64,000 nucleotides of DNA from Sphyrna mokarran. Taxonomy: Eukaryota. Below, one piece after another: positions 1,105 to 56,304 of the stretch. The notes beneath the pieces were generated by a model. That model made no database searches, was not told where the DNA came from, and saw only the letters and a program-made list of their open reading frames with translations. The position numbers were made by a program, and so were the translations under genes. The stretch spans positions 31,620,001-31,684,000 of the forward strand of contig JAGIQG010000004.1 in NCBI GenBank assembly GCA_024679065.1. The letters run 5' to 3'. How positions within the stretch are numbered: the stretch's first letter is position 1; each line of letters starts with the position of its first letter.

Positions 1105-1627
1105 AACAAAGAACAAAGAACAAAACAGCATGGGAAACAGGCCCTTCGGCCCAACAAGCCCGCACCGCCACCTCAATGTTCCCACTTCTACATGCGATCC
1201 CTGTCCATGTTTATAGATCTATGGATTAAAAACCAAATTTGAGACAATTTAGGGAGAATTTGTTTTGCCAATTAGCCTAAGAGCACATCTTTGGGATGTG
1301 GGAGGAACCGGAGCTCCCGGAGAAAACCCACGCAAGCACGGGGAGAATGCGCAAACTCCCACAGACACAGGCCCAAATCCATGTATCTGCACAGCACAGC
1401 GATAGTCACTGAGCTGTCGTGTTGCACATCAGATGGTCCAGGTCAAGCATACACTAACGATGTGAAGCAGTAGGATACTCTCGAAGAAGATCCAAGAGCA
1501 GTCCTCTCACGACCCATCGCGTGTATGCCCCTCATTAGACAACAAGGTGGACCAAAGCACCTGTAGGATAAAAACAAGTACATCATCTATTTACACACTT
1601 CCCAGGGACTCCCAAGGCTCATGATCC
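1105..1627 (-). other. CR1 3' UTR containing an embedded V-SINE-derived module (remodelled tRNA head, V-domain, CR1 tail)
   Basis: 1250-1370 matches the central core of the free HE1-type SINEs in this window. The same arrangement lies directly downstream of the ORF2 stop at 29047-29507 and in the copy at 7762-8235. Confidence 0.88.
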
Positions 1628-4430
1628 CTATTTTAAATCAGTTTTCTATAACCCTCCATTCCCATTCTGTTCATGTGCCCATCTAAGTATTTCTTAAATA
1701 ACTCCAGAGTACCTGCCTCCACCACTTTACTTGGCAGCGCATTCCATACCCCACCACCCTCTGTGTGAAAAAACTCCCTCTAGCATCCAAATTATACCTT
1801 ACCCCCCCTCACCCTAAGCCCGTGACCCCTCGTGCTATTTGAGTCCATCCCAGGAAAAAGCTTAGCCCTGTTTACTCTATCTATCCCCTTCAAAATCTTG
1901 TACACCTCTATCAGATCTCCTCTAAGTCTACGTCTTTCTAAGGAAAACAGTCCCAATTTGCCTAATCTCTCCTCGTAACTCAGATCTTCCATACCAGGCA
2001 ACATCCTGGTAAACCTCCTCTGCAGTCTTTCCAGAGTCTTCACGTCCTTCTGGTAGTAAGGCGACCAGATCTGGACACAGTATTCCAAATGAGGTCTAAC
2101 CAGCGTTTTATACAACTGCAACATTAAAGGCCAGCTCTTGTACTCTATACCCATTCCTATAAAGGCTAGCATACTATATGCTTTCTTCACAACCTTCTCC
2201 ACTTGCTCTGCCACCTTCAGAGACTTGTTCACCTGCACCCCCAGTTCCCTCTGCGTTTCTATACTCCTAATAGGTCTACCCTTTATCATATACCTCCCCC
2301 CTACATTTTTTCTCCCGAAATGCATCACCTCACATTTATCAGGATTGAATTCCATCTGCCATCTGTCTGCCCAAGCTACCAGCCTATCTATGTCCTGCTG
2401 CATCGCCTGACAATGCTCCTCACTATCCACAAGTCCAGCCATCTTTGTATTGTCTGCAAACTTGCTGATCACTCCACTTACTCCCTCTTCCAAGTCATTT
2501 ATATATATTACAAATAGAAGAGGTCCCAGTACCGAGCCCTGCAGCACTAGTGACCGACCTCCAGCTAGAGAAACACCCTTCCACTATTACTGTCTGTCTC
2601 CTATTACCAAGCCAGTTGCTTATCCATCTCGCTACCTGTCCTCGTATCCCATTTGCCTTGACCTTCTCGACTAACTTCCCATGAGAGACTTTGTCAAACG
2701 CCTTACTAAAATCCATATAGACAACATCAACAGCTCGCCCTTCGTCCACCGTTTTCGTCACCTCCTCAAAAAATTCTACCAGATTTGTAAGGCACGACCT
2801 CCCCTTAACAAATCCATGCTGCGTATCCCTAATCAGATTGCAACACTCTAAGTGCCTATACATCCTATCTCTAAGAATCCCCTCCAACAGCTTCCCTACC
2901 AATGACGTCAAACTCACCGGCCTATAATTTCCAGGGTTATCCCTACTACCCTTTTTAAACAACGGTACAACATTAGCTATTCTCCAGTCCTCTAAGACCT
3001 CACCTGTGTCCAAGGAAGAGACAAAGATTTGCATCAGAGGCCCAGCAATTTCACCTCGCACCTCTCTAAGCAGTCTGGGATAAATGCCATCAGGCCCTGG
3101 AGATTTATCAGTTTTAATGCTACCTAGAAGCTCTAACACTTCCTCCCTCAGTATGGATATTTCCCTCAACTGGTCCACAGCTCCCTCAGAGACAGGAGCT
3201 GTCAACAAGCCCCTCTCCTTCGTGAATACCGACGCAAAGTATTCATTCAGGATCTCCGCCATTCCCTCGGGCTCTAAGCACAGTTCCCCTCCTCTGTCCC
3301 TAAGAGGTCCGATTTTTCCTCTAACCACCCTTTTATTCCTAACATAGGAGTAAAAAGCCTTTGGGTTTTCCTTAATCCTATCCGCCAAAATCATTTCATG
3401 CCCCCTTTTTGCCCTTCTAACTCCCTGTTTGAGATCCCTCCTACTCTCTCTATATTCCTTCAATGCTGTCTCGGTTTCCAGCTGCTTTGACCTATCATAC
3501 ACTTCTCTTTTCTTCCTAACCAAGTCCTCAATATCCCTAGTAATCCACGGCTCTCTAATTCTACCTTTCCCATCTTTCCTCTTGGCTGGCACGTACTTAT
3601 CTTGCAACATTTTCAGTATTCCCTTGAAAGAGTCCCACGTGCCTAGTGTGGACTTACCCTCAAACAACCATTCCCAATCAATTTCCCTAAGTTCCTGCCT
3701 AATTCGACTGTAGTTAGCCTTCCCCCAATTCAGCACCCTGCCCCTAGGGCAACAAGCATCCTTTTCCATCTGTATCCTAAAGTAGACAGAATTGTGGTCA
3801 CTGTTAGCCACATGTTCCCCCACTACAACATCAACCACCTGCCCTGGCTCATTACTCAGAACTAAATCCAATATAGCCCCTTCTCTAGTCGGGCTAGCCA
3901 CATACTGTTCCAACGATCCTTCCAGTACACATTTTACAAATTCCTGCCCATCCAAACCCCCAGCTCTAAGTACTTTCCAATCCACCCTAGGGAGATTAAA
4001 ATCTCCCACTATAACGACTCTGTTCTTTCTGCACCTATCCAAAATGTCTTTACATATGCCTTCTTCAACTGCCCGTGGGCTGTTGGGTGGCCTATAATAC
4101 ACCCCTAGCATTGTTATTGCCCCCTTTCTATTCCTCAACTCCACCCACAGTGACTTCACTCCTAACTCCTCTGTATTGTCCTCCCTCTGCACTGCCGTGA
4201 TACTCTCCTTAACTAACAACGCCACTCCCCCACCTCTTCTGGACCTTCCTCTGTCACGCCTGAAACACTTATACCCAGGAATGTTCAGTTGCCACTGCTC
4301 CCCTTCCTTTAACCACGTCTCTGTCACTTCAACCACATCCAAGTTCCTCGCAAACATTAAGGCCCTAAGTTCATCCGTTTTTCCCATTACTCCTCCTCGC
4401 ATTGAAACAGACACACTCCAGATCTCCAAG
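1628..4430 (-). pseudogene. CR1 ORF2 (APE endonuclease plus reverse transcriptase), frameshifted
   Basis: Motifs TETWL, YYRPP, GDFN, SDH, KSPGPDG, NYRPVSL, QHGF, DFSKAFD, QGSVLGP, FADN (FADD expected) and RPHLEYC. Frameshifts lie near 4395 (CFNAR/GVMGKTDEL), 2545 and 1800; the natural stop is at about 1628. Confidence 0.95.
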
Positions 4431-4540
4431 ACCACTCGGAACCTCCTTCTCCCTGGTGCATCTCTTCTCATCCAAGCTTACTCTATCTCCCATCTCGCTC
4501 TCTACCGAGAGATTGGTCTCATCCCCTCCCCCCCTCCATA

Positions 4541-5485
4541 TTAGTTTAAATCCTGCCGAAACATTCCAGCTAACCTCCCAGCTAAGATATCCACACCCTT
4601 CCCATTCAAGTGTTTCCCATCCCTTCTGAACAGGTGCCCTTCTTTTACAAAGACTTCCCAGTTATCCACAAATATGAAACCCTCTGCCCTACACCAGTCC
4701 TTCAGCCACACATTCAGCTGTAGGATCTCATTTCTCCTGGCCCCGCTATTACCCGCACCTGGAAGCAGCCCTGAGATCGTCACCCTCGAGGCCCTGTTCT
4801 TCAGCCTGCCCCCCAACTCCCTGAACTGCCTTCTTATATCTTCCCTGCTCTTCCTTCCTACATCCTTCTCTCCTATGTGAATAATCACATCCGCCTTGGC
4901 CCCCTCACCCTTCAAAATGCCCTCTACCCTGTCTGACACATCTTGCACCCCTACTCCAGGGAGGCAAACTACCATCCTGGAATCCCGCCTTGGACCACAG
5001 AAGCGCCTATCTATTCCTTTAACTCTCCCATCCCCCACCACTATCTCCCTTCTAGCCCCTTTCCTCCCCTTTGAGGTACTCTGGTCCTTGAGCCTTGCCT
5101 TTTTTAACCCTCTGCCCTCGACATTTTGGGGGCTGCCACTGGGGAAGTCTTTGGACTGTCTCCCCTCTCCTTTTTCCCCTTCCTGACAGTAATCCACCTG
5201 TAAGGGTCAGGTTTCCCCCCCTTAGGCTCCGGGTCTGCTACCTTACTTTGCCTCCCTTCCAATGATTGCCTCGTTCTCCCTGACTAAAAATGCATCTTCC
5301 AATTGGCGCTCTAGTTGCTTGACCCGAGCCCTCAGATGCTGCAGCTCCAAACACTTGGCGCATACATGGACTTTCTGGAGAGGTCTCACCTCCAGGAACT
5401 CCCACATGTGACACCGTACACAGGTGAGGCGTCTTCTCTTAATCCCTGCCATTGTCATGGACACCTTTGGAGGTGTGAATTCCAA
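4541..5485 (-). pseudogene. CR1 ORF1 (CxxC...CxxC zinc finger, coiled coil, SGNH/GDSL esterase-like domain), frameshifted
   Basis: ORF 5243..5485 has CVRC...CAKC followed by LELQHLRARVKQLERQLE. ORF 4541..5197 has VVGDGRVKGIDRRFCG, CLPG, IHIGEKD and FRRDGKHLNGKG, matching the esterase blocks of vertebrate CR1 ORF1. The two pieces are in different frames. Confidence 0.9.
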
Positions 5486-6109
5486 TGGAAAACCAGTAGC
5501 ACACTGTGTCTAAGCCTGCTCTAGCCCAAGTCCTGGGAGCCAAAGCCCTTGTATCTCTCACTCTGCCTCCTTATTCACCCCGCTGCCCGCTCCCGACGCT
5601 GCCCGCTGTTTACTGCCACTTTCTCTTTATACTCCCCGGTTCCCTTCCCAGCTAGCCCCAGGCCTAACTACAGCAGCAAAAAGCACTCAAAAAAAGAGAG
5701 AGAAAAAAAAGCAAATTGAAAAATTCACTCAGCCACCAGCACTTCCAAACACTCTGTCCCAGAGAACAACATCAACATATTGATCCTAAATTCCCCAAGA
5801 TTTACAGAGCATGAATGTATCAGCCTACTGTAACACAAGGGAAAACTGGATGATATGTCTGACTTCCAGATTATCAACAATTGGGTGCAAAAATATCTGA
5901 AAAACATGGATGTTATCATCTAAGGATAATATGTGTTCATATTAGGCTTGCAAGCCTTCATGTGAGGCTACAGAGGAATTATAAAAGGAAATCAGGATTA
6001 TAGAGAAGAAGAAATGCTTTTGCTCATGGGGCTTTATTTGAAGATGCCTGCCACTGATGGCCACTTGGTCTTTTTGGGAAAAGCCCTTATTCTAGGAGGC
6101 TGAAGATGC

Positions 6110-7761: not shown

Positions 7762-8235
7762 GTACTTGTTTTTATCCTATAGGTGCCTAGGTCCACCTTG
7801 TTGTCTAACGAGGGGCATACACGCGATGGGTCGTGAGAGGGCTGCTCTTGGATTTTTTTTTTCAAGAGTATCCTGTGCTTCACATTGTTAGTGTATGCTT
7901 GACCTGGACCATTTGATGGGCAACACGACAGCTCAGTGACTATCGCTGTGCTATGCAGATACATGGATTTGGGCCTGTGTCTGTCGGAGTTTGTGCATTC
8001 TCCCAGTGCTTGCGTGGGTTTTCTCCAGGTGCTCCGGTTTCCTCCCACATCCCAAAGATGTGCTCTTAGGCTAATTGGCAAAACAAATTCTCCCTAAATT
8101 GTCTCAAATTTGGTTTTTAATCCATAGATCTATAAACATAGACAAGGATCACGGGTAGAGGTGGGAGCATCGGGGTGGCGGCTTGGGCTCGTTGGGCCAA
8201 AGGGCCTGTTTCCCGTGCTGTTTTGTTCTTTGTTC
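7762..8235 (+). mobile_element. 5'-truncated CR1 copy consisting only of the V-SINE-containing 3' UTR
   Basis: Reverse complement of 1105-1581 with high identity, ending in the (TTCTTTG)n tail. Confidence 0.93.
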
Positions 8236-14960: not shown

Positions 14961-16297
14961 AAGAACATAAGAACATAAGAAATAGGAGCAGGAGTAGGCC
15001 ATACAGCCCCTTGAGCCTGCCCCGCCATTCAATAAGATCATGGCTGATCTGTAGTGGTTCAGTACCACTTTCCCGCTTTCTCCCCTTAACCCTTAATTCC
15101 CTTGTCAATTAAAAACCTATCAACTCTTGACTTGAAGATATTCAGTAAGGAAGCCTCCATCACCTCATCAGGCAGAGAATTCCAAAGGTTCACCACCCTC
15201 TGCGTGAAGAAACACCTCTGATCTGAATCGCCTCCCCCAATCTTGAGGCTGTGCCCTCTAGTCCTGCTATCTTTGTTAAGCGGGAAGAGTCTCTCAACCT
15301 CTACCCTATCCATCCCCTTCATTATTTTTAACGTTTCTATAAGATCCCCTCTCAGCTTTCTAAAGTCCAAAGAATACAAACCTAGCCTATTCAGTCTCTC
15401 CCCATAATTCAAAGCCCTCATCTCTGTTATCAGCCTACTGAACCTTCTCTGCACTCCCTCCAAGTCCAATATATCCTTCCTCGAATACGGCGACCAAAAC
15501 TGCACACATTACTCCAGCTACGGCCTCACCAGCACTCTCTACAGCTGCAACAGAACCTACCTACTTTTATATTCTATCCCCCTAGCTATAAAGGACGACA
15601 TTGCATTTGCCTTCTGAATCACTTGCTGCACCTGCATACTGTGTTTTTGCAATTCGTGCATAAGGACCCCCAGGTCCTTCTGCATCATCGCCTGCTGCAG
15701 GTTTTCTCCATTTAAATAATAGCCTTCCTACCATTATTCCTACCAAAGTGGATAACCTCACACTTGCTAACATTATACTCCATCTGCCAGGTCCTCACCC
15801 ACTCACTCAACCTGTCCAGATTCCTTTGCAGGCTTTCCACACCCTCCACACAATTTGCTTTTCCACTCGTCTTCGTGTCATCGGCAAATTTCGTCACCCT
15901 GCACTCTACCCTTCCTCCAAATCATCTATGTAAATGGCAAGTAGTTGAGGCCCCAGCACCGAACCTTTGGGCACTCCACTAGTCACGGCTGCTAATCAGA
16001 ATAGCACCCATTAATACCCTCTGCTTCCTATTAGACGACCGATCCTCTATCCAGTCTAACACCCTACCCCCGACTCCCTGCACCTTAACCTTCTGCAGCA
16101 ATCTTTTGTGAGGCACCTTATCAATCACTTTCTGGAAATCCAAAAACACCACATCCACCGGTTCCCCTCTATCTACTGCACTAATCACTTCCTCATAGAA
16201 CTCTAATAAATTCGTCAAGCACGACTTCCCCTTAATGAATCCGTGCTGCGTCTGCCTGATCAAACCATTCATATCCAGGTGCCTCATTATTTCTGCT
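14961..16297 (-). mobile_element. 5'-truncated CR1 LINE (RT C-terminal half, short 3' UTR), inserted in an older LINE
   Basis: ORFs 15979..16287, 15712..15897 (KFADDTK) and 15086..15505, with a (TTCTTATG)n tail at 14961-14981. The flanks (14830-14960 and 16298-16470) join into an older LINE 3' end. Confidence 0.95.
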
Positions 16298-19252: not shown

Positions 19253-19570
19253 GGGCAGCACAATGGCACAGTTGTTAGCAATGTTGTCTCACGGTGCCAG
19301 GGGCACGGGTTCAATTCTCCTTGGGGAACTGTTTGTGTGGAATTACACATTCCCCCCATGTCTGTGTGGGTTTCCTCCGGGTGCTCCAGTTCCCTCCCAC
19401 AATCCAAAGATGCGCAGATTAGCTTGATTAGCCATATACATTGCCTCTTAGCATCAGGGGGATTAGGACTATAAATATGTAAGGTTATGGCATTGGGACC
19501 TAGGTGGGATTGTTGTCAGTGCAGGATTGATGGGCCAAATGGCCTCTTCCTGTACTGTAGCTTCTATGAA
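19253..19570 (+). mobile_element. HE1-type V-SINE (CR1 tail)
   Basis: Head GGGCAGCACAATGGCACAG, B box GGTTCAATTC, V-domain and CR1 tail. Confidence 0.88.
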
Positions 19571-21592: not shown

Positions 21593-22651
21593 CATAGAAC
21601 ATAGAACATTACAGCACAGAACAGGCCCTTCGGCCTTCGATGTTGCGCCAACCAATTAACGAAAAGCAATGACCCTCTAACCTAAACCATTTCCTTTTCA
21701 TCCATAAACTTATCTACTAACCTCTTAAACGCCACCAAACTTGGCACATCTACAACTGACGCAGGCAGGGCATTCCATACCCTTACCACCCTCTGGGTAA
21801 AGAACCTACCTCTGACATTCGTCCTATAACTACCACCCCTTAATTTAAAGCTATGTCCCCTCGTGCTAGCTTTCTCCATCCTAGGAAAAAGGCTATCACT
21901 GTCCACCCTATCTAAACCTCTAATCATCTTATATGTTTCAATAAGGTCTCCTCTTAGCCGCCTCCTTTCTAACGAAAACAACCTCAAATCCCTCAGCCTC
22001 TCTTCATAAGACCTGCCCTCCATACCAGGCAACATCCTGGTAAACCTCCTCTGTACCCTCTCCAATGCCTCCACATCTTTCTTATAATGTGGGGACCAGA
22101 ACTGCACACAATACTCCAAGTGCGGCCGCACTAGAGTTTTGTACAGTTGCAACATGACGTTGCGGCTCCGAAATTCAATCCCCCTACCAATAAAAGCTAA
22201 GACTCCGTATGCCTTCTTAACAACCTTATCGACTTGATTGCCAACTTTCAGGGATCTATGCACATATACACCAAGATCCCTCTGTTCATCAACACTATTA
22301 AGAGTCCTACCATTAGCCCTATACTCTACACATTTGTTATTCCTGCCAAAGTGAATTACCTCACACTTTTCCACATTAAACTCCATTTGCCACCTCTCGG
22401 CCCAGCTCTGCAACTTGTCCAAGTCTCTCTGCAAACTATAACACCCCTCTTCACTATCTACCACTCCACCGACTTTAGTGTCATCTGCAAATTTACTAAT
22501 CCATCCTTCAATACCCTCATCCAGATCATTTATAAAAATTACAAACAGCAGGGGCCCCAAAACAGATTCCTGAGGTATACCACTAGTAACCGAACTCCAC
22601 GATAAATAATTTCCATCAGCCCGAACTCCATGATGAATAATTTCCATCAAC
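21593..22651 (-). mobile_element. Young 5'-truncated CR1 with uninterrupted ORF2 C-terminus
   Basis: ORF 21682..22653 (SGIPQESVLGP, KFADDTK, RPHLEYC), short 3' UTR and (TTCTATG)n tail. Confidence 0.97.
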
Positions 22652-22879
22652 ATACATGGAACTTATGAGGAACTTACATGGATTCTCTATCTGTAAACTA
22701 ATCAGGATTTTAATTGCTCACCAATTTTTGTTCCAAAACTGCATCCGTGAATTAAATTTCTGCTTGCCAATTGCAGAATGAGAATTAATTTTTGTTAATA
22801 GAAAGGGAAGAAATCTATGGCAGGAATTTCTTGGTGAGGGCCAGAGGAAATGTATCATTTTGGCTTTGATCCTCTTGCC

Positions 22880-26920: not shown

Positions 26921-27077
26921 GCCATCATCTCTCCTCAAATCAAACTGCCTTCCATCTCTTACTGGACTACTTTGTGTTTCAATGGCAATGACTCAGATAA
27001 GTTCTCAGGAAGCAGGTAATTTAAATATTATAATGAGTCTGTTTGCCTTAGACTTAACCAACCTTCCACTTTTAACC

Positions 27078-27297
27078 AAAAACAGAAAATGCTGGAAAAT
27101 CTCTGCAGGATGGGCAGCGTCTGTGGGGAGAAAATAGACCACCATTTTGAGTCTAGATGACCTTCGTTAAGAGTTGAGTCATCCAGACTTGAAAAGTTGG
27201 TTCTATTCTCTTCCTACAGATCCTGTCAGGACTGCTGAGATTTTCCAACATTTTGTATCTTTGTTTCAGATTCTAGCATCCACAGTATTTTGCTTCC
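27078..27297. mobile_element. Fold-back Penelope-like element (family A) with hammerhead remnants on both strands
   Basis: Arms at 27078-27140 and 27200-27265 are inverted. The centre holds GAGTCATCCAGACTTGAAA on + and a GAAGGTCATCTAGACTCAAAA remnant on -. Confidence 0.75.
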
Positions 27298-27979: not shown

Positions 27980-28178
27980 ACAAAAACAGAAAATGCTGGA
28001 AAATCTCAGCAGGTCTTACAGCATCTGTGGAGAGAGAATAGAACTCTGATGAAGGGATATCAAATGAAGGGAATGTTGGCTCTATTCTCTCTCCACATAT
28101 GCTGTAAGACATGCTGAGATTTTCCAGCATTTTTTGTTTCTGTTTCATATTCCAACATCCGCAGTAATTTGCTTTTAT
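27980..28178. mobile_element. Fold-back Penelope-like element (family A)
   Basis: Roughly 60-bp near-perfect inverted arms (27981-28043 and 28079-28140) around CTGATGAAGGG, with an asymmetric 3' extension TTCCAACATCCGCAG. Confidence 0.8.
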
Positions 28179-28299: not shown

Positions 28300-30235
28300 A
28301 ATTATTGCAGATAATCATTTGTGTTATGCTTTTATCAGTTTGTTTGTCCAACATCCTGTCCTCAATGAGATGCAATTTCCAATTGTTAAATATTGAGAAA
28401 ACTAAAGCAATCATTGTGTCCCCATCACAAATGTGGTACCATGCCGCTATTTCATGCCTGGCTATCACACTGAACCAGACTATTCATAGCCTTGGTGATC
28501 CATTCTGCTCCAAGCTGAGTGATTGACCTCAGAACACCTTCATTTATATGGAAAGCTTACTTCACCTCCTATCTCTGCCTCAGCATCTCCTTTGCTGAAA
28601 CTTCTATCTATATTTTTTTTTGCCTCCAGACTGGGCTGTGCCAATGATTTCTGTGGTGGATTTGCTCATTTAACCATCCGCAAATTTTGACTCATGTTAG
28701 CAATCCCCTCAACTATCACCTCATATCTCTGTTGGCTCACATTAATTTAAAATTTTCATGTTTGTGCTTTCCTAAGTCTGTTCAATGGTCTCAATTTCCT
28801 ATCGTTTTAACCTAGACACTCAGTAACTCTGTAACATCTGTTAACTCCCCCTCAGAAGACTGCGTAGCTCTGGCTGGCTGCTTAGGCCTCCACCCTTGGT
28901 GGCTAACCCTACCTCTAACCCTACACCTTCAATCACCCAGGTACTCTGCTGTAGAATTGCCTTCATAAGTTTCTCTGTCACTTTCATCACCCAATCTTCT
29001 TTAATATTGTTCTTCTGCCTTAATACAAATTTATGAAGTTCTTTTTAGAGCAACACAGCACGGGAAACAGGCCCTTCGGCCCAACGAGCCCGCGCCGCCG
29101 TCATAACTATATAGTAACAATTCCATTATCCTATTCTAATTTTAGGTTATTCCTAATATGGAAGAGTCTCAATGTAGGGACAATTTGTTCCCCAATCAGC
29201 CTAAGAGCGAATTTTTGGGATGTGGGAGGAAACCGGAGCGCCCGGAGAAAACCCACGCAACCACGGGGAGAACGCGCAAACTCCCGCAGACACCGGCCCA
29301 ATTCCAAGTGTCTGCACAGCTACAGTGATAGTCACTGAGCTGTCATGGTGCCCTTCAGATGGTCCAGATAAAGCACTCATTTACGACATGAAGCACCAGG
29401 CAACCCATGAATCAACATCCAAGAGCTGTCCTCGCACCACCTGCCGAATGCATGCTACTTGTTGGTCAAGTATGGACCGAATTACCTGTGGAAAAAAAAA
29501 GCCATAGTTAAACAGTCCTACTATATCCCTCTATCTGCATAACGCTCATGTGGCTGTCCAAGAGACCCTTAAACAGCCCTAGCGTGACTGCTCCCACCAC
29601 CTTACTCGGCAGTGCATTCCACACCCCCACTACCCTTTGTGTGAAAAACTGCCCTCTAATATTCGTCTTATACATAGCCCCCCTCACCCTAAGGCCATGA
29701 CCCCTCGTCCTATCCATTTCTGAAGGTGGAAAAAGTTTACCACCATTTACTCTATCTAAACCCCTTATAATCTTATACACCTCTATTAGATCCCCTCTAA
29801 GCCGACATCTTTCAAGGGAAAACAACCCCAGTCTATTCAATCGTTCCTCATAAGACAGTCCTTCCATACCAGGCAGCATCCTGGTAAACCTCCTCTGCAC
29901 TCTCTCCAAGGACTCCACATCCTTCCAATAATACGGCGACCAGAACTGGACGCAGTATTCCAAGTGAGGCCTAACCAACGTTCTATACAATTGCAACATC
30001 AAACTCCTACTCTTGTATTCTATACCCTTTTCTATGAAAGCTAACATTCTATACGCTTTCTTTATCACCTTCTCCACCTGTGAAGACACCTTCAGAGACT
30101 TGTGAACCTGCACCCCCAAGTCTCTCTGCGTCTCTATACTCCGAATAGTTTTACCTTTTATCCTATAACTCTCTTCTACATTTTTGAATGTATTTACACA
30201 TTAATGGTGCTAAATAAATGCAAGTTATTGTTTTT
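28300..30235 (+). mobile_element. Old L2-type LINE 3' part, interrupted by the CR1 at 29047-30180
   Basis: Decayed LLNIEKTKAI...SRLGCAN motifs; an L2-type tail GGTGCTAAATAAATGCAAGTTATTG resumes at about 30200. Confidence 0.6.
29047..30180 (-). mobile_element. 5'-truncated CR1, second subfamily with V-SINE-containing 3' UTR
   Basis: Intact ORF2 C-terminus 29508..30119, then a roughly 460-bp UTR with the same hairpins, V-domain and CR1 tail as 1105-1627 but unrelated spacers. Confidence 0.95.
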
Positions 30236-39864: not shown

Positions 39865-40983
39865 GGGCCTGATTTTACCATTTTTATTCTAAGTGCTGAA
39901 TCTAGATGTAATTCAGATCCGATTTGGAAATCTGCTTTCAGGCGTCCCCATTAGCATTCAACCTGGGAAAAAAAATTGCAAGTCTGAAGCGCGCTGTGGG
40001 CAGGGCCTAGCACGCCCAAAACACTCGGAGCTCTGAACTGCACATACGCAGTTAGAAAATAATTGAAAAACTGCGCCGCTGTCAGCTCGCTCCCGAGCCA
40101 CAAATAGCTGATAAAGCAATCTGGGAGTGAAATGCAAGAGCAATGGCTCCCACAGACATCACTGTCCCTCTGATCCACACCTCCCCCCATTACCCACTGA
40201 TATCACTGTCCTCCTTATCCACCCACATCTCCGCCCTCCAGAATGATCGTGACCCCTGACGCCTTCCCCCCACCAATCCCCCCCAAAAACCCCACCTGGC
40301 CTCACTCCCCCACCGCTGGACAATGATCCTGTCATGTCTCCGTTCCCCTCCCCCGCCCCAGAAAATGACCTGGCCTCACTTCCTCCCTGCTTCCCGGAGA
40401 ATGATCTGGACTCACTCCTGCACCCGCCCTCCCACCCCTACTAAGAGAATGATCTGACCTCACTCCCCCTGCAAGAGAATGATCTGGTGTCACTCCCCCA
40501 CCTGCCCTCCCCACCCCCTCATCACCAGACAACGATTGACCTCCTCCCTACCCCCCGAACAACAATGGTCTGGCCTCACTTCCCTCCCCCCCCCCCCCCC
40601 CCCCCCAACCAGAGTATGATCTGACCCCACCAATCTGAGTCAGGGAGCCATTGGAAGCTCTGAACTCACTTCTTCAGCAGCTGGACTGCCCAAAACAGAG
40701 TTTCATTCAGCAGGTCCATTTCGGCATGATTCCCCATTGATGAATGCAATGCTAAAGGGGGAATGCTGATAAAGTTGGGCGGGCATTTTGTTAATTTAAT
40801 TTAAATGCGAGCAAATGCATTTAAATTGCTGTTATGCCCATTTCGGGTGCGAATCTGATCATGCCCATTCCTGGGGTCCAGTAAAGTGGCCATCTGGGTG
40901 GGCATGGGTTGCATTAATGGCTTCACACCTGACTTTATTTCTGCACCCTAAAACAAGTGCAACACAATGGTAAAATAGGGCCC
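39865..40983. mobile_element. Non-autonomous PIF/Harbinger-type DNA transposon (1.1 kb) with internal C-rich minisatellite
   Basis: TIRs GGGCCTGATTTTACCATT / AATGGTAAAATAGGGCCC and a 3-bp TSD TGA/TGA. Confidence 0.85.
40240..40635. repeat. Degenerate tandem repeat (AGAATGATCTGGCCTCACTCCCC-like) with a C21 run
   Basis: About 9-10 variable units; poly-C at 40586-40606. Confidence 0.85.
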
Positions 40984-50574: not shown

Positions 50575-50882
50575 GTGATCCTACAGTGTAGAACGAGGCC
50601 ATTCAGCTCATCAAATCTGCACCAAAATCAATCCCACCTAGGCCCAATCCCCTTAACCCTATGTATTTAGCCTATTCTGACACTAAGGGGAAATTTAACA
50701 TGGTCAATCCACCTAACCTACACATACTTGGACTGCGGGAGGAAACTGGAGCACCCAGAGGAAACCCACACAGAGATGGAGAGAATGTGCAAACTCCACA
50801 CAGACAGTGGCCCATACTGGGAATTGAATCTGAATCCATAGCACTATGAGGCAGCAGTGCTAACAACTATGCCCCCCTGCCA
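50575..50882 (-). mobile_element. HE1-type V-SINE
   Basis: Complete antisense copy. Confidence 0.85.
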
Positions 50883-55204: not shown

Positions 55205-55510
55205 TCTTGAATCATTGAATCCTACAGTGCAGAGGAAGGCCATTCAGCCCATCAAGTCTGCACTGACCATAACCCCACCCAGCCCTATCCCTAGAACCTC
55301 ACGCATTTACCCTACTAGTCCCCCAACGCAAAGTGACAATTTAGCATGGCCAATCATCCTAACATCTTTGGACGGTGGGAGGAAACCAGAGCACCTGGAG
55401 GAAACTCACACAGACAAGGGGAGAATGTGCAAACTCCACACGGACAGTGACCCAAGCCAGGAATCGAGCCTGGGTCTTTGGCACTGTGAGGCAGCAGTGC
55501 TAATCACTTT
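55205..55510 (-). mobile_element. HE1-type V-SINE
   Basis: Complete antisense copy. Confidence 0.85.
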
Positions 55511-56304
55511 GCTTTAAACTGAAAGCATGCCTGTTGAGTAAATCATTTGAATCCTAAGGCAGGCTTTGGGATTCTGGCCTCATATAGAAATGCAGATCCT
55601 GAGCCAGCACTTGTTGGTAATGCGACCAGTTTGGCAAGTTTACCACATGTGGCCTCTCCCTTGGCATTCTGTAGCCTTATCATCTGATGAAGGATGGCAG
55701 ACATGCTTCTGATGCAGCTGGCTCAGTCAGAGGACTGGAAGGTCTGAGTCCTCGGCACTGCTGTCAGGAAATGTGTGTGCTGCTATGGCAGGCAGGAGAC
55801 CTCTGGAGCTTGGACCTACTCTGGAGTAGGTTTTAAAAAATAAAATTCATAGGTAGATGGGGAAAGCCCTCTGGGAGATTGCTGAGACAACCTGGACTGC
55901 CTTCCCTGCCCAAAGCCCGCTCTTTAATCCAACAAACTTCTGGCTCTGATGGATCTCAGTATCTAACGGGAAGGTCACCTCTATTAAATTGGCACCTCCC
56001 TGAGTACCCACCATTGGCAAAGTGCCAGCAGGTTTGTAATGCGGCCCTTATTTATACTAATGGTGAAAAGTCCTAGTAGCCAGACCATTCTGGGAGGCCC
56101 CCACATTATGATTCCACACTATTTTGCTAACTCACTCACCACCCAGCAATCCCCCTGCTCCTGCTCTTAACTTCACGGGCACATGAAGTTAAAAGATATT
56201 TTGGTAGATTTTCAACTTGGCATCTGAGCATAAAACTGAAATTACAGGTTAGTTTATATGATAGAAGCAGCCCAATTTTGATTCCTATTGATTTCAATGA
56301 AAGG

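What the first reader, a model, noticed from the sequence alone, without database searches (positions are those of the whole stretch)
1105..1627. A CR1 LINE lineage that has absorbed a whole V-SINE as its own 3' UTR
Seen: directly after the ORF2 stop, the UTR reads spacer, degenerate tRNA-like head (GGGCAACACGACAGCTCAGTGACTATC in the 7.9-kb copy, versus free SINE GGGCAGCACAATGGCACAGT.GTTAGC), full V-domain, spacer, CR1 tail. The same layout occurs in three separate insertions (1105-1627, 7762-8235, 29047-29507) and in two subfamilies with clearly different ORF2 sequence, so it travels with the LINE rather than being a local SINE insertion. The CR1s at 14961, 21593 and 62831 have short UTRs without it. 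Established: HE1-type V-SINEs borrow the HER1/CR1 3' tail. Inference: the flow has reversed here, with an autonomous LINE recapturing its parasite. The V-domain stays alignable between subfamilies while the adjacent spacers do not, which suggests selection on the V-domain in cis, a domain whose function is unresolved. I do not know of a description of this chimera but cannot search for one.
Basis: partly seen in the sequence, partly recalled or inferred. Interest (0 to 1): 0.85.

Follow-up and report, generated by a model that had tools for sequence, protein, structure and literature searches.

The report
Shark LINE keeps captured SINE core
A family of self-copying jumping genes in this shark-type genome carries, in the untranslated end of tens of thousands of copies, the front half of the small parasite element that normally exploits such genes, and keeps its conserved core nearly unchanged while the parasite's promoter decayed, which likely means this long-unexplained core helps the RNA get copied.

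Summary
Confirmed, with corrections. One clade of CR1 LINEs in this 2.77-Gb shark-type genome carries a fixed 3' UTR module: a ~127-nt hairpin, a V-SINE tRNA-like head, the V-domain, a variable spacer and a LINE-type tail. All 60 loci found with ORF2-only queries have it; an exact 21-nt module motif occurs 27,679 times. Five subfamilies share it. One older subfamily (F) still has the head's B-box arm; the other four lost the same 18 nt. That intermediate supports transfer from SINE to LINE. The V core is 90-97% identical between subfamilies, against 60-85% at fourfold ORF2 sites. Inserted copies decay at the ordinary rate, so selection acts on the replicating lineage. Head and V-domain are predicted to fold as in the free SINE, with one compensatory pair. 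Corrections: it is not a whole SINE (promoter boxes broken, tail LINE-type), the upstream 'spacer' is a conserved hairpin, and the 7762 copy has no ORF2. Most likely the module is a cis-acting RNA element that aids retrotransposition; this is inferred, not shown. Nine completed paper searches found no description; Repbase, Dfam and other sharks could not be checked.

The parts
1105..5760 (-). Near full-length CR1 LINE copy, subfamily A (5' UTR, esterase-type ORF1, endonuclease-RT ORF2 broken by frameshifts, 3' UTR module)
   Evidence: Pfam: OSK 36.4 bits, Lipase_GDSL_2 32 bits (just under its cut-off 32.9), Exo_endo_phos, RVT_1. The 5' end is read by eye
1633..1635 (-). ORF2 stop codon (TAA)
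   Evidence: last residue at 1636; aligns with the subfamily B stop
1586..1632 (-). Variable linker; stop-to-hairpin distance is 21 nt in B, 81 in A, about 105 in B2, about 175 in E
1561..1585 (-). Pyrimidine tract ending in CAG, resembling a splice acceptor; no trace of use found; the CAG also pairs as the base of the hairpin
   Evidence: kept in five subfamilies; no spliced copies or joints; basal stem
1434..1560 (-). Long three-way hairpin of unknown origin, found only in module copies
   Evidence: z -4.9 (A), -3.8 (B); 28 of 29 predicted pairs kept in four subfamilies; 19 profile hits in 864 kb, all module copies; no significant Rfam match
1387..1427 (-). Remnant of the V-SINE tRNA-like head, A-box with 2-3 mismatches
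   Evidence: free-SINE matrix finds it at a fixed offset; 0-2 of 1000 shuffles as high
1360..1386 (-). Shortened second arm; 18 nt holding the B-box are missing near 1379-1380 compared with subfamily F and free SINEs
1290..1359 (-). V-domain core; its 5' part is predicted to pair with the head, its 3' part (1298-1331) is the 'Vhc' hairpin
   Evidence: Vhc described in PMC4758252
1251..1289 (-). SINE-like stretch after V; end of similarity to the free SINE
   Evidence: 24-27 of 37-39 letters match the free SINE
1173..1250 (-). Unconserved spacer
   Evidence: 11 of 55 columns invariant in four subfamilies
1105..1172 (-). CR1 3' tail stem-loop and short repeat; LINE-type, not the free SINE's tail
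   Evidence: (46 of 52 invariant)
7762..8235 (+). 5'-truncated subfamily A copy, no ORF2 (hairpin 7783-7911, V 7986-8056, tail 8174-8225)
   Evidence: (92% to 1111-1581)
29047..30185 (-). 5'-truncated subfamily B copy (stop 29508-29510, hairpin 29360-29485, V 29214-29284, tail 29051-29099)
19253..19569 (+). Free V-SINE used for comparison (others at 55209-55512 and 50578-50881, - strand)
21593..22662 (-). CR1 of a young module-free clade, short UTR (contrast; likewise the copies at 14961 and 62831)

Best explanation
One ancestral CR1 LINE likely picked up the first ~200 bases of a V-SINE inside its own 3' UTR, five descendant subfamilies still carry them, and the head-plus-V-domain likely works as a folded RNA element that helps the LINE's own transcript get reverse-transcribed. 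Shown: linkage to one ORF2 clade, co-linearity with the free SINE, decay of the Pol III boxes (point changes in all five subfamilies, loss of the B-box arm in four), slow change of V, head and tail between subfamilies, ordinary decay of inserted copies. Predicted: the same fold as the free SINE (head 5' end paired with the 5' part of V, closing three arms, then the Vhc hairpin). Inferred: capture by reverse-transcriptase template switching or by SINE insertion into an active master copy followed by loss of the SINE tail; binding of a host or LINE protein that stabilises, exports or delivers the RNA to ORF2 protein. I put single capture plus lineage-level purifying selection at about 0.85 and the RNA-level cis role, given that, at about 0.7.
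For: 60 of 60 ORF2-selected loci carry V. In eight 100-kb blocks plus the window, 14 of 100 CR1 ORF2 ends carry the module, and they form one branch (98/97; 94/80; 91/89). Subfamily F: 28 of 30 loci keep the B-arm segment, which matches the free SINE at 37 of 48 letters with one gap; 18 of 30 have an ORF2 end upstream, one of them a nested insertion. 24 letters are shared by all five subfamilies and differ from the free SINE. V core 64-69 of 71 between subfamilies versus fourfold sites 52/84, 53/89, 66/91, 90/106, 56/80, 57/89; Fisher p 0.01 to 3e-8. Inserted A copies decay alike: non-CpG 2.7% in V, 3.4% in ORF2, 3.6% in the spacer, 13 copies. Separate alignments of LINE modules, F and free SINEs give the same topology. 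One head-V pair is G-C in 16 of 26 parsed free copies and A-U in 33 of 33 parsed A, B2 and E copies and 24 of 26 F copies.
Against: No functional assay. A module-free CR1 clade in the same genome is just as young, so CR1s do not need it in general. That compensatory pair is a C-U mismatch in all 23 B copies. In single-sequence folds the head-V helix has median probability 0.99 in B but 0.07 in B2 and is split in A; in free SINEs it is only about 0.5. V alone folds no better than shuffles (z -0.9 to 0.4), and has too little variation to show covariation. F is not resolved as basal; it groups with E (91/93), so the B-arm loss needs repeats or UTR exchange, or the 330-nt tree is wrong. The six pairwise tests are not independent. 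Only one genome was examined.
Confidence: 0.6

Rival explanations
1. The V-domain is kept as a DNA element (a transcription-factor site or enhancer) that keeps master copies transcribed in the germ line; the RNA fold is a by-product.
For: V is conserved in sequence in loops as well as stems (3 variable columns of 35 in Vhc) and folds no better than shuffles alone. PMC4824008 lists transcriptional activity among the proposed roles.
Against: Position is fixed between two RNA hairpins; head and V change together at one pair and keep one predicted topology.
Confidence: 0.15
2. The module has no role in replication; V looks conserved because it is a recombination hot spot that is repeatedly exchanged between subfamilies or with the abundant free V-SINEs.
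For: Hot-spot role proposed for such domains (PMC5499810; PMC4758252). Hairpin identities (A-E 86%, B2-E 88%, B-B2 82%) do not follow the ORF2 tree well, B2 has one V letter like the free SINE, and F is not basal.
Against: 24 LINE-only letters are shared by five subfamilies, two of them in the V core. Conserved blocks (head, V, tail) alternate with unconserved ones (linker, spacer), which one swap would not give. None of 132 free V copies has the module's tail.
Confidence: 0.12
3. The module is a terminal exon: the pyrimidine tract plus CAG is a working splice acceptor, and splicing or spliceosome binding there is what is selected.
For: Tract plus CAG-G is kept in five subfamilies while the linker before it varies from 21 to about 175 nt. 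In A, 6 of 60 loci start 7-23 nt before it.
Against: No copy starts at the exon G among 90 loci; none of 30 loci with foreign upstream sequence is joined to an upstream sense donor of element A; only 2 of 81 broken copies end exactly after the AG; no such joint among those listed from four runs; B shows no cluster (0 of 30); the CAG pairs in the hairpin base.
Confidence: 0.08
4. Reverse direction: the V-domain arose in this LINE's UTR and was donated to SINEs.
For: LINE parts do supply some SINE bodies (PMC5786205).
Against: The module includes a tRNA-like head with decayed A and B boxes; it sits in one nested CR1 branch; V-SINEs reach bivalves and cnidarians (PMC4824008).
Confidence: 0.03

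Closest known systems
HE1 V-SINE / HER1 LINE pair of sharks and rays (table row in PMC3747384; originals Ogiwara 1999 and 2002 not read)
   Same: tRNA-like head, V-domain, CR1-type tail; shark-type genome
   Different: Here head and V lie inside an autonomous LINE's 3' UTR, the Pol III boxes are broken, and the tail is LINE-type. Identity with the HE1 and HER1 consensuses could not be tested.
Ingi-3_AC of Aplysia with a Ceph-SINE-like piece in its 5' UTR (PMC5786205)
   Same: A LINE holding a piece similar to a SINE conserved domain; recombination with a SINE was suggested
   Different: That piece is ~70 nt, in the 5' UTR and itself RTE-derived; the passage read gives no head remnant, subfamily series or test of selection
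SINE module exchange by template switching (PMC4824008, PMC5499810)
   Same: Likely the same process joins head, body and tail
   Different: Products described there are non-autonomous SINEs that gain LINE tails; here the recipient is the LINE
Vhc subdomain hairpin (PMC4758252)
   Same: A 37-40-nt stem-loop with an internal loop in the most conserved part of V; the module keeps it (32 of 35 columns invariant across five subfamilies and the free SINE)
   Different: That paper says the hairpin did not appear preserved in fish V-SINEs (data not shown); it is predicted here in both the shark SINE and the LINE, and the paper's passages mention no head-V helix

Membership tests
CR1 clade LINE | ORF2 with APE endonuclease and reverse transcriptase | tested here: met
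   best-scoring relatives are bird and turtle CR1-type proteins at 41-51%
CR1 clade LINE | ORF1 with esterase domain (vertebrate canonical CR1, PMC13343379) | tested here: met
   OSK above cut-off, Lipase_GDSL_2 E 2e-7 just under cut-off
CR1 clade LINE | 3' stem-loop tail with short repeats; frequent 5' truncation | tested here: met
V-SINE (the module as a SINE) | Central V-domain | tested here: met
   63-66 of 71 letters match the free SINE; the Vhc part matches by eye a published bivalve V-SINE row; the full vertebrate consensus was not available
V-SINE (the module as a SINE) | tRNA-derived head with intact Pol III A and B boxes | tested here: not met
   A-box 2-3 mismatches in all five subfamilies; B-box 3-4 in A, B, B2, E and 2-3 in F; 15 best free copies 0-2 (box patterns recalled)
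V-SINE (the module as a SINE) | Own LINE-derived tail as in the free family | tested here: not met
   module tail is nearest V-negative CR1 tails; 0 of 132 free copies have it
V-SINE (the module as a SINE) | Moves as a short unit starting at the head | tested here: inconclusive
   the few short copies in the blocks start at scattered places (+72, +124, +158); queries that include the hairpin cannot see head-start copies
HE1 / HER1 | Identity to the published consensuses | not testable with these tools
   Ogiwara 2002 not held; Ogiwara 1999 not looked up; no Repbase or Dfam
Spliceosomal 3' splice site | Use in splicing (joined copies or RNA junctions) | tested here: inconclusive
   no trace; one search had contigs only and listed part of the joints
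Known structured RNA family | Rfam match for the hairpin or head | tested here: not met
   one match at E 8.4; none for a free SINE; ARAGORN none

The most novel reading that the evidence does not exclude
The V-SINE head plus V-domain is a portable RNA fold that boosts retrotransposition whatever polymerase made the RNA. A shark LINE took it from its parasite, stripped the promoter and has depended on it through at least five waves of amplification, which would explain why V-domains are conserved across animals.
Probability: 0.4. Interest if true: 0.85.

Novelty: new variant of a known kind. Interest (0 to 1): 0.7.

Why it matters
Why SINE central domains stay conserved across phyla is stated as unknown (PMC4824008 abstract). 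Proposed answers include Pol III transcription, tail swapping, host benefit and RNA stability. Here the V-domain stays conserved inside a LINE that has lost the Pol III boxes, has its own tail, and whose inserted copies decay neutrally. That weakens the first three and points to a role during replication. Because the carrier is autonomous and has very young subfamilies (B2 hits 99-100% identical over the query), the domain can be deleted in a one-plasmid retrotransposition assay, with module-free CR1s from the same genome as controls. In practice, repeat annotation would count tens of thousands of LINE ends as SINE copies.

Tried and rejected
Branch-point stop of reverse transcriptase: four A copies start at -20 to -23, but B has none within -69 (0 of 30) and starts spread over -1 to -13. 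Retrocopied excised intron: one block copy ends exactly at the AG, but only 2 of 81 genome-wide broken copies do. Spliced short derivative: none. The 7762 copy as founder of a short family: its nearest relatives have scattered 5' ends. Hairpin as known RNA: no Rfam match. A first head test was faulty (profile too long; A and B2 not detected) and was redone. First fourfold counts used a wrong frame or failed and were redone. Other species: one search lists the stretch in several coded organisms and odd metagenomes; two DNA runs had contigs about 98% like A across the ORF2-hairpin junction, but only 63 and 106 records were laid and no listed piece reaches V, so contamination is possible and nothing is concluded. 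Metagenome pattern scan: 35 hits, none with V, hairpin or CR1. A V-headed LINE as donor: 5 of 304 free V hits had endonuclease sequence nearby; the four on the same strand, and two more with long open frames, were chance neighbours. L434 looked like module transfer to another CR1 clade but is a nested insertion. No long internal partner for the edited region. The sigma-70 scan is not relevant to this genome.

Full report
Observation. On the minus strand ORF2 stops at 1633-1635 and is followed by a linker, a head-like stretch, the V-domain, a spacer and a CR1 tail ending at 1105. This copy is near full length (to about 5760), with an esterase-type ORF1 and an endonuclease-RT ORF2. The 29047 copy is a second subfamily, B; the 7762 copy is a truncated A without ORF2. 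The genome is 2.77 Gb. I call it shark-type from its repeats: V-SINEs with CR1 tails, listed for sharks and rays in PMC3747384, and a 64% shark protein among the closer ORF2 relatives.

The module travels with the LINE. Queries holding only ORF2 returned loci of which 30 of 30 (A) and 30 of 30 (B) have V at a near-fixed distance downstream; each set includes the window copy and is ranked by likeness. For an unbiased view I took eight 100-kb blocks. With the window, they hold 100 CR1 ORF2 ends; 15 have V downstream, one by chance adjacency, so 14 carry the module (12 of 94 outside the window). On trees of the last 330 nt of ORF2 the carriers form one branch (98/97, 94/80, 91/89; weak or short hits were left out, 55, 43 and 49 rows). 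The one V-negative member is an A copy broken just before the hairpin. Other clades have UTRs of about 50-100 nt. An exact 21-nt hairpin motif of A, B2 and E occurs 27,679 times, control 0. Nineteen LINE-type V copies in 800 kb extrapolate roughly to 66,000.

Five subfamilies. A (94% mean pairwise identity over the module), B (98%), B2 (96% over the module, 99-100% over the query), E (86%) and F (88% over head and V) share the architecture. F was found through a pattern for a hairpin joined to a SINE-like head (3 hits) and a second held copy. In F, 28 of 30 loci keep the B-box arm, which matches the free SINE at 37 of 48 letters with one gap; A, B, B2 and E lack the same 18 nt. Eighteen of 30 F loci have an ORF2 end upstream; one is a nested insertion of another CR1. 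The A-box has 2-3 mismatches everywhere and F's B-box 2-3, against 0-2 in the 15 best free copies (patterns recalled). A matrix from 34 free heads finds the LINE head at offset -68 to -70 from V, against about -88 in free copies, with 0-2 of 1000 shuffles as high. Twenty-four letters are shared by all five subfamilies and differ from the free SINE (7-8 copies each, 15 free). This supports one capture from SINE to LINE followed by promoter decay. F is not resolved as basal, so the order of the arm loss is open.

What was captured. Similarity to the free SINE runs from the head to about 40 nt after V. The tail is LINE-type: after module copies, the best hits to a module-tail profile are V-negative CR1 tails and orphan tails (E 1e-7 and weaker), free V-SINE tails score E 1e-3 or weaker, and none of 132 free copies has it. 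Upstream lies a 127-nt three-way hairpin (z -4.9 and -3.8; -0.9 in a decayed E copy), found only in module copies (19 hits), without Rfam match. So it is a SINE front half inside the LINE's UTR, not a whole SINE.

Selection. Between A and B, fourfold ORF2 sites match at 107 of 181, the V core at 67 of 70, head 40 of 43, tail 48 of 49, hairpin 88 of 125 (p 0.053) and downstream spacer 28 of 76 (30 A and 29 B copies, one B with an insertion left out). Over four subfamilies V exceeds fourfold sites in all six pairs (p 0.01 to 3e-8, pairs not independent); the head does in five, the hairpin in three. Thirteen block or window A copies, two hyper-edited ones left out, decay alike in V, ORF2 and spacer. 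The constraint therefore acts on replicating masters, not on inserted copies.

Fold. Three separate alignments (12 copies of four subfamilies, 25 free copies, 8 F copies) predict the same plan: head 5' end paired with the 5' part of V, closing three arms, then a hairpin with an internal loop. That last hairpin is the Vhc subdomain of PMC4758252; a bivalve V-SINE row in the supplement of PMC4824008 matches it by eye. One head-V pair is G-C in 16 of 26 parsed free copies (127 examined) and A-U in A, B2, E (33 of 33) and F (24 of 26), but mismatched in B (23 of 23). Support is uneven: the helix is about 0.5 in free SINEs and weak in single B2 sequences. These are predictions.

Mechanism. Shown: linkage, single clade, promoter decay, lineage-level conservation. 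Inferred: capture by template switching or by insertion into an active master, and a role of the folded module in stabilising, exporting or delivering the LINE RNA to its reverse transcriptase. A module-free clade is equally young, so this is a lineage-specific dependence. Rivals are a DNA-level element, homogenisation by recombination, a splice-acceptor role and the reverse direction. The acceptor-like motif is kept in all five subfamilies but left no trace of use.

Literature. Nine completed full-text searches (less one that returned nothing, 52) found no description of a CR1 with a V-SINE in its UTR; I judged most hits from listings only. I read PMC5786205 (abstract, passages, parts 2-4 of 5 of the main text), passages of PMC4824008, PMC3747384, PMC5499810, PMC11481361, PMC4758252, PMC13343379 and PMC1513397, and searched supplements of PMC4824008 (2 of 3 files) and PMC11481361 (8 files, no hit). 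The nearest precedent is Ingi-3_AC with a Ceph-SINE-like piece in its 5' UTR. The 2026 CR1 survey mentions UTRs once and not this; its supplements were not seen. Ogiwara 2002 is not held; Repbase and Dfam could not be checked, and an uncommented consensus may exist there. Earlier scan notes had no look-alike of this stretch; two describe SINE-headed LINEs in other shark genomes, which I did not see here.

Verdict. A real, abundant and apparently undescribed SINE-to-LINE capture with an intermediate still in the genome; a new variant of known module exchange; interest 0.7.

Noticed in passing
L158 (G000:C446 block, 71560-71980) and L148 (G000:C938 block, 75760-76460): Two A copies carry dense A-to-G changes (21 and 19, versus 0 and 1 T-to-C) from the end of V to the tail, like ADAR editing before insertion; 2 of 154 A copies held, but both among about 15 unranked ones. 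No long internal partner strand found.
   Followed up: partly
window 1561-1585 and relatives: 5' ends seem enriched just upstream of the hairpin in A (6 of 60 loci at -7 to -23; 225 of 27,679 motif hits with foreign letters at -11 to -13), not in B (0 of 30); possibly reverse transcriptase falling off after the hairpin.
   Followed up: partly
held loci and blocks: Free V-SINEs use at least two tails: 113 CR1-type, 82 another type, 109 unassigned of 304. The partner LINE of the second tail was not sought.
   Followed up: partly
P0082, P0104: CR1-type ORF2 proteins 65-67% identical to the window's are filed under bacteria on 1.6- and 3.0-kb contigs, likely contamination.
   Followed up: no
runs X12, X16-X18: Words of element A occur in money, soil and metatranscriptome runs; contamination with shark DNA is one explanation.
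   Followed up: partly
window 27074-27295 and 27980-28174: Two copies of a ~200-nt repeat with terminal inverted arms, MITE-like.
   Followed up: no
window 40294-40626: C-rich degenerate tandem repeat of about 60-75 nt units.
   Followed up: no
L179, L223, L397, L434: Several module copies are interrupted by later insertions of other CR1 families.
   Followed up: no
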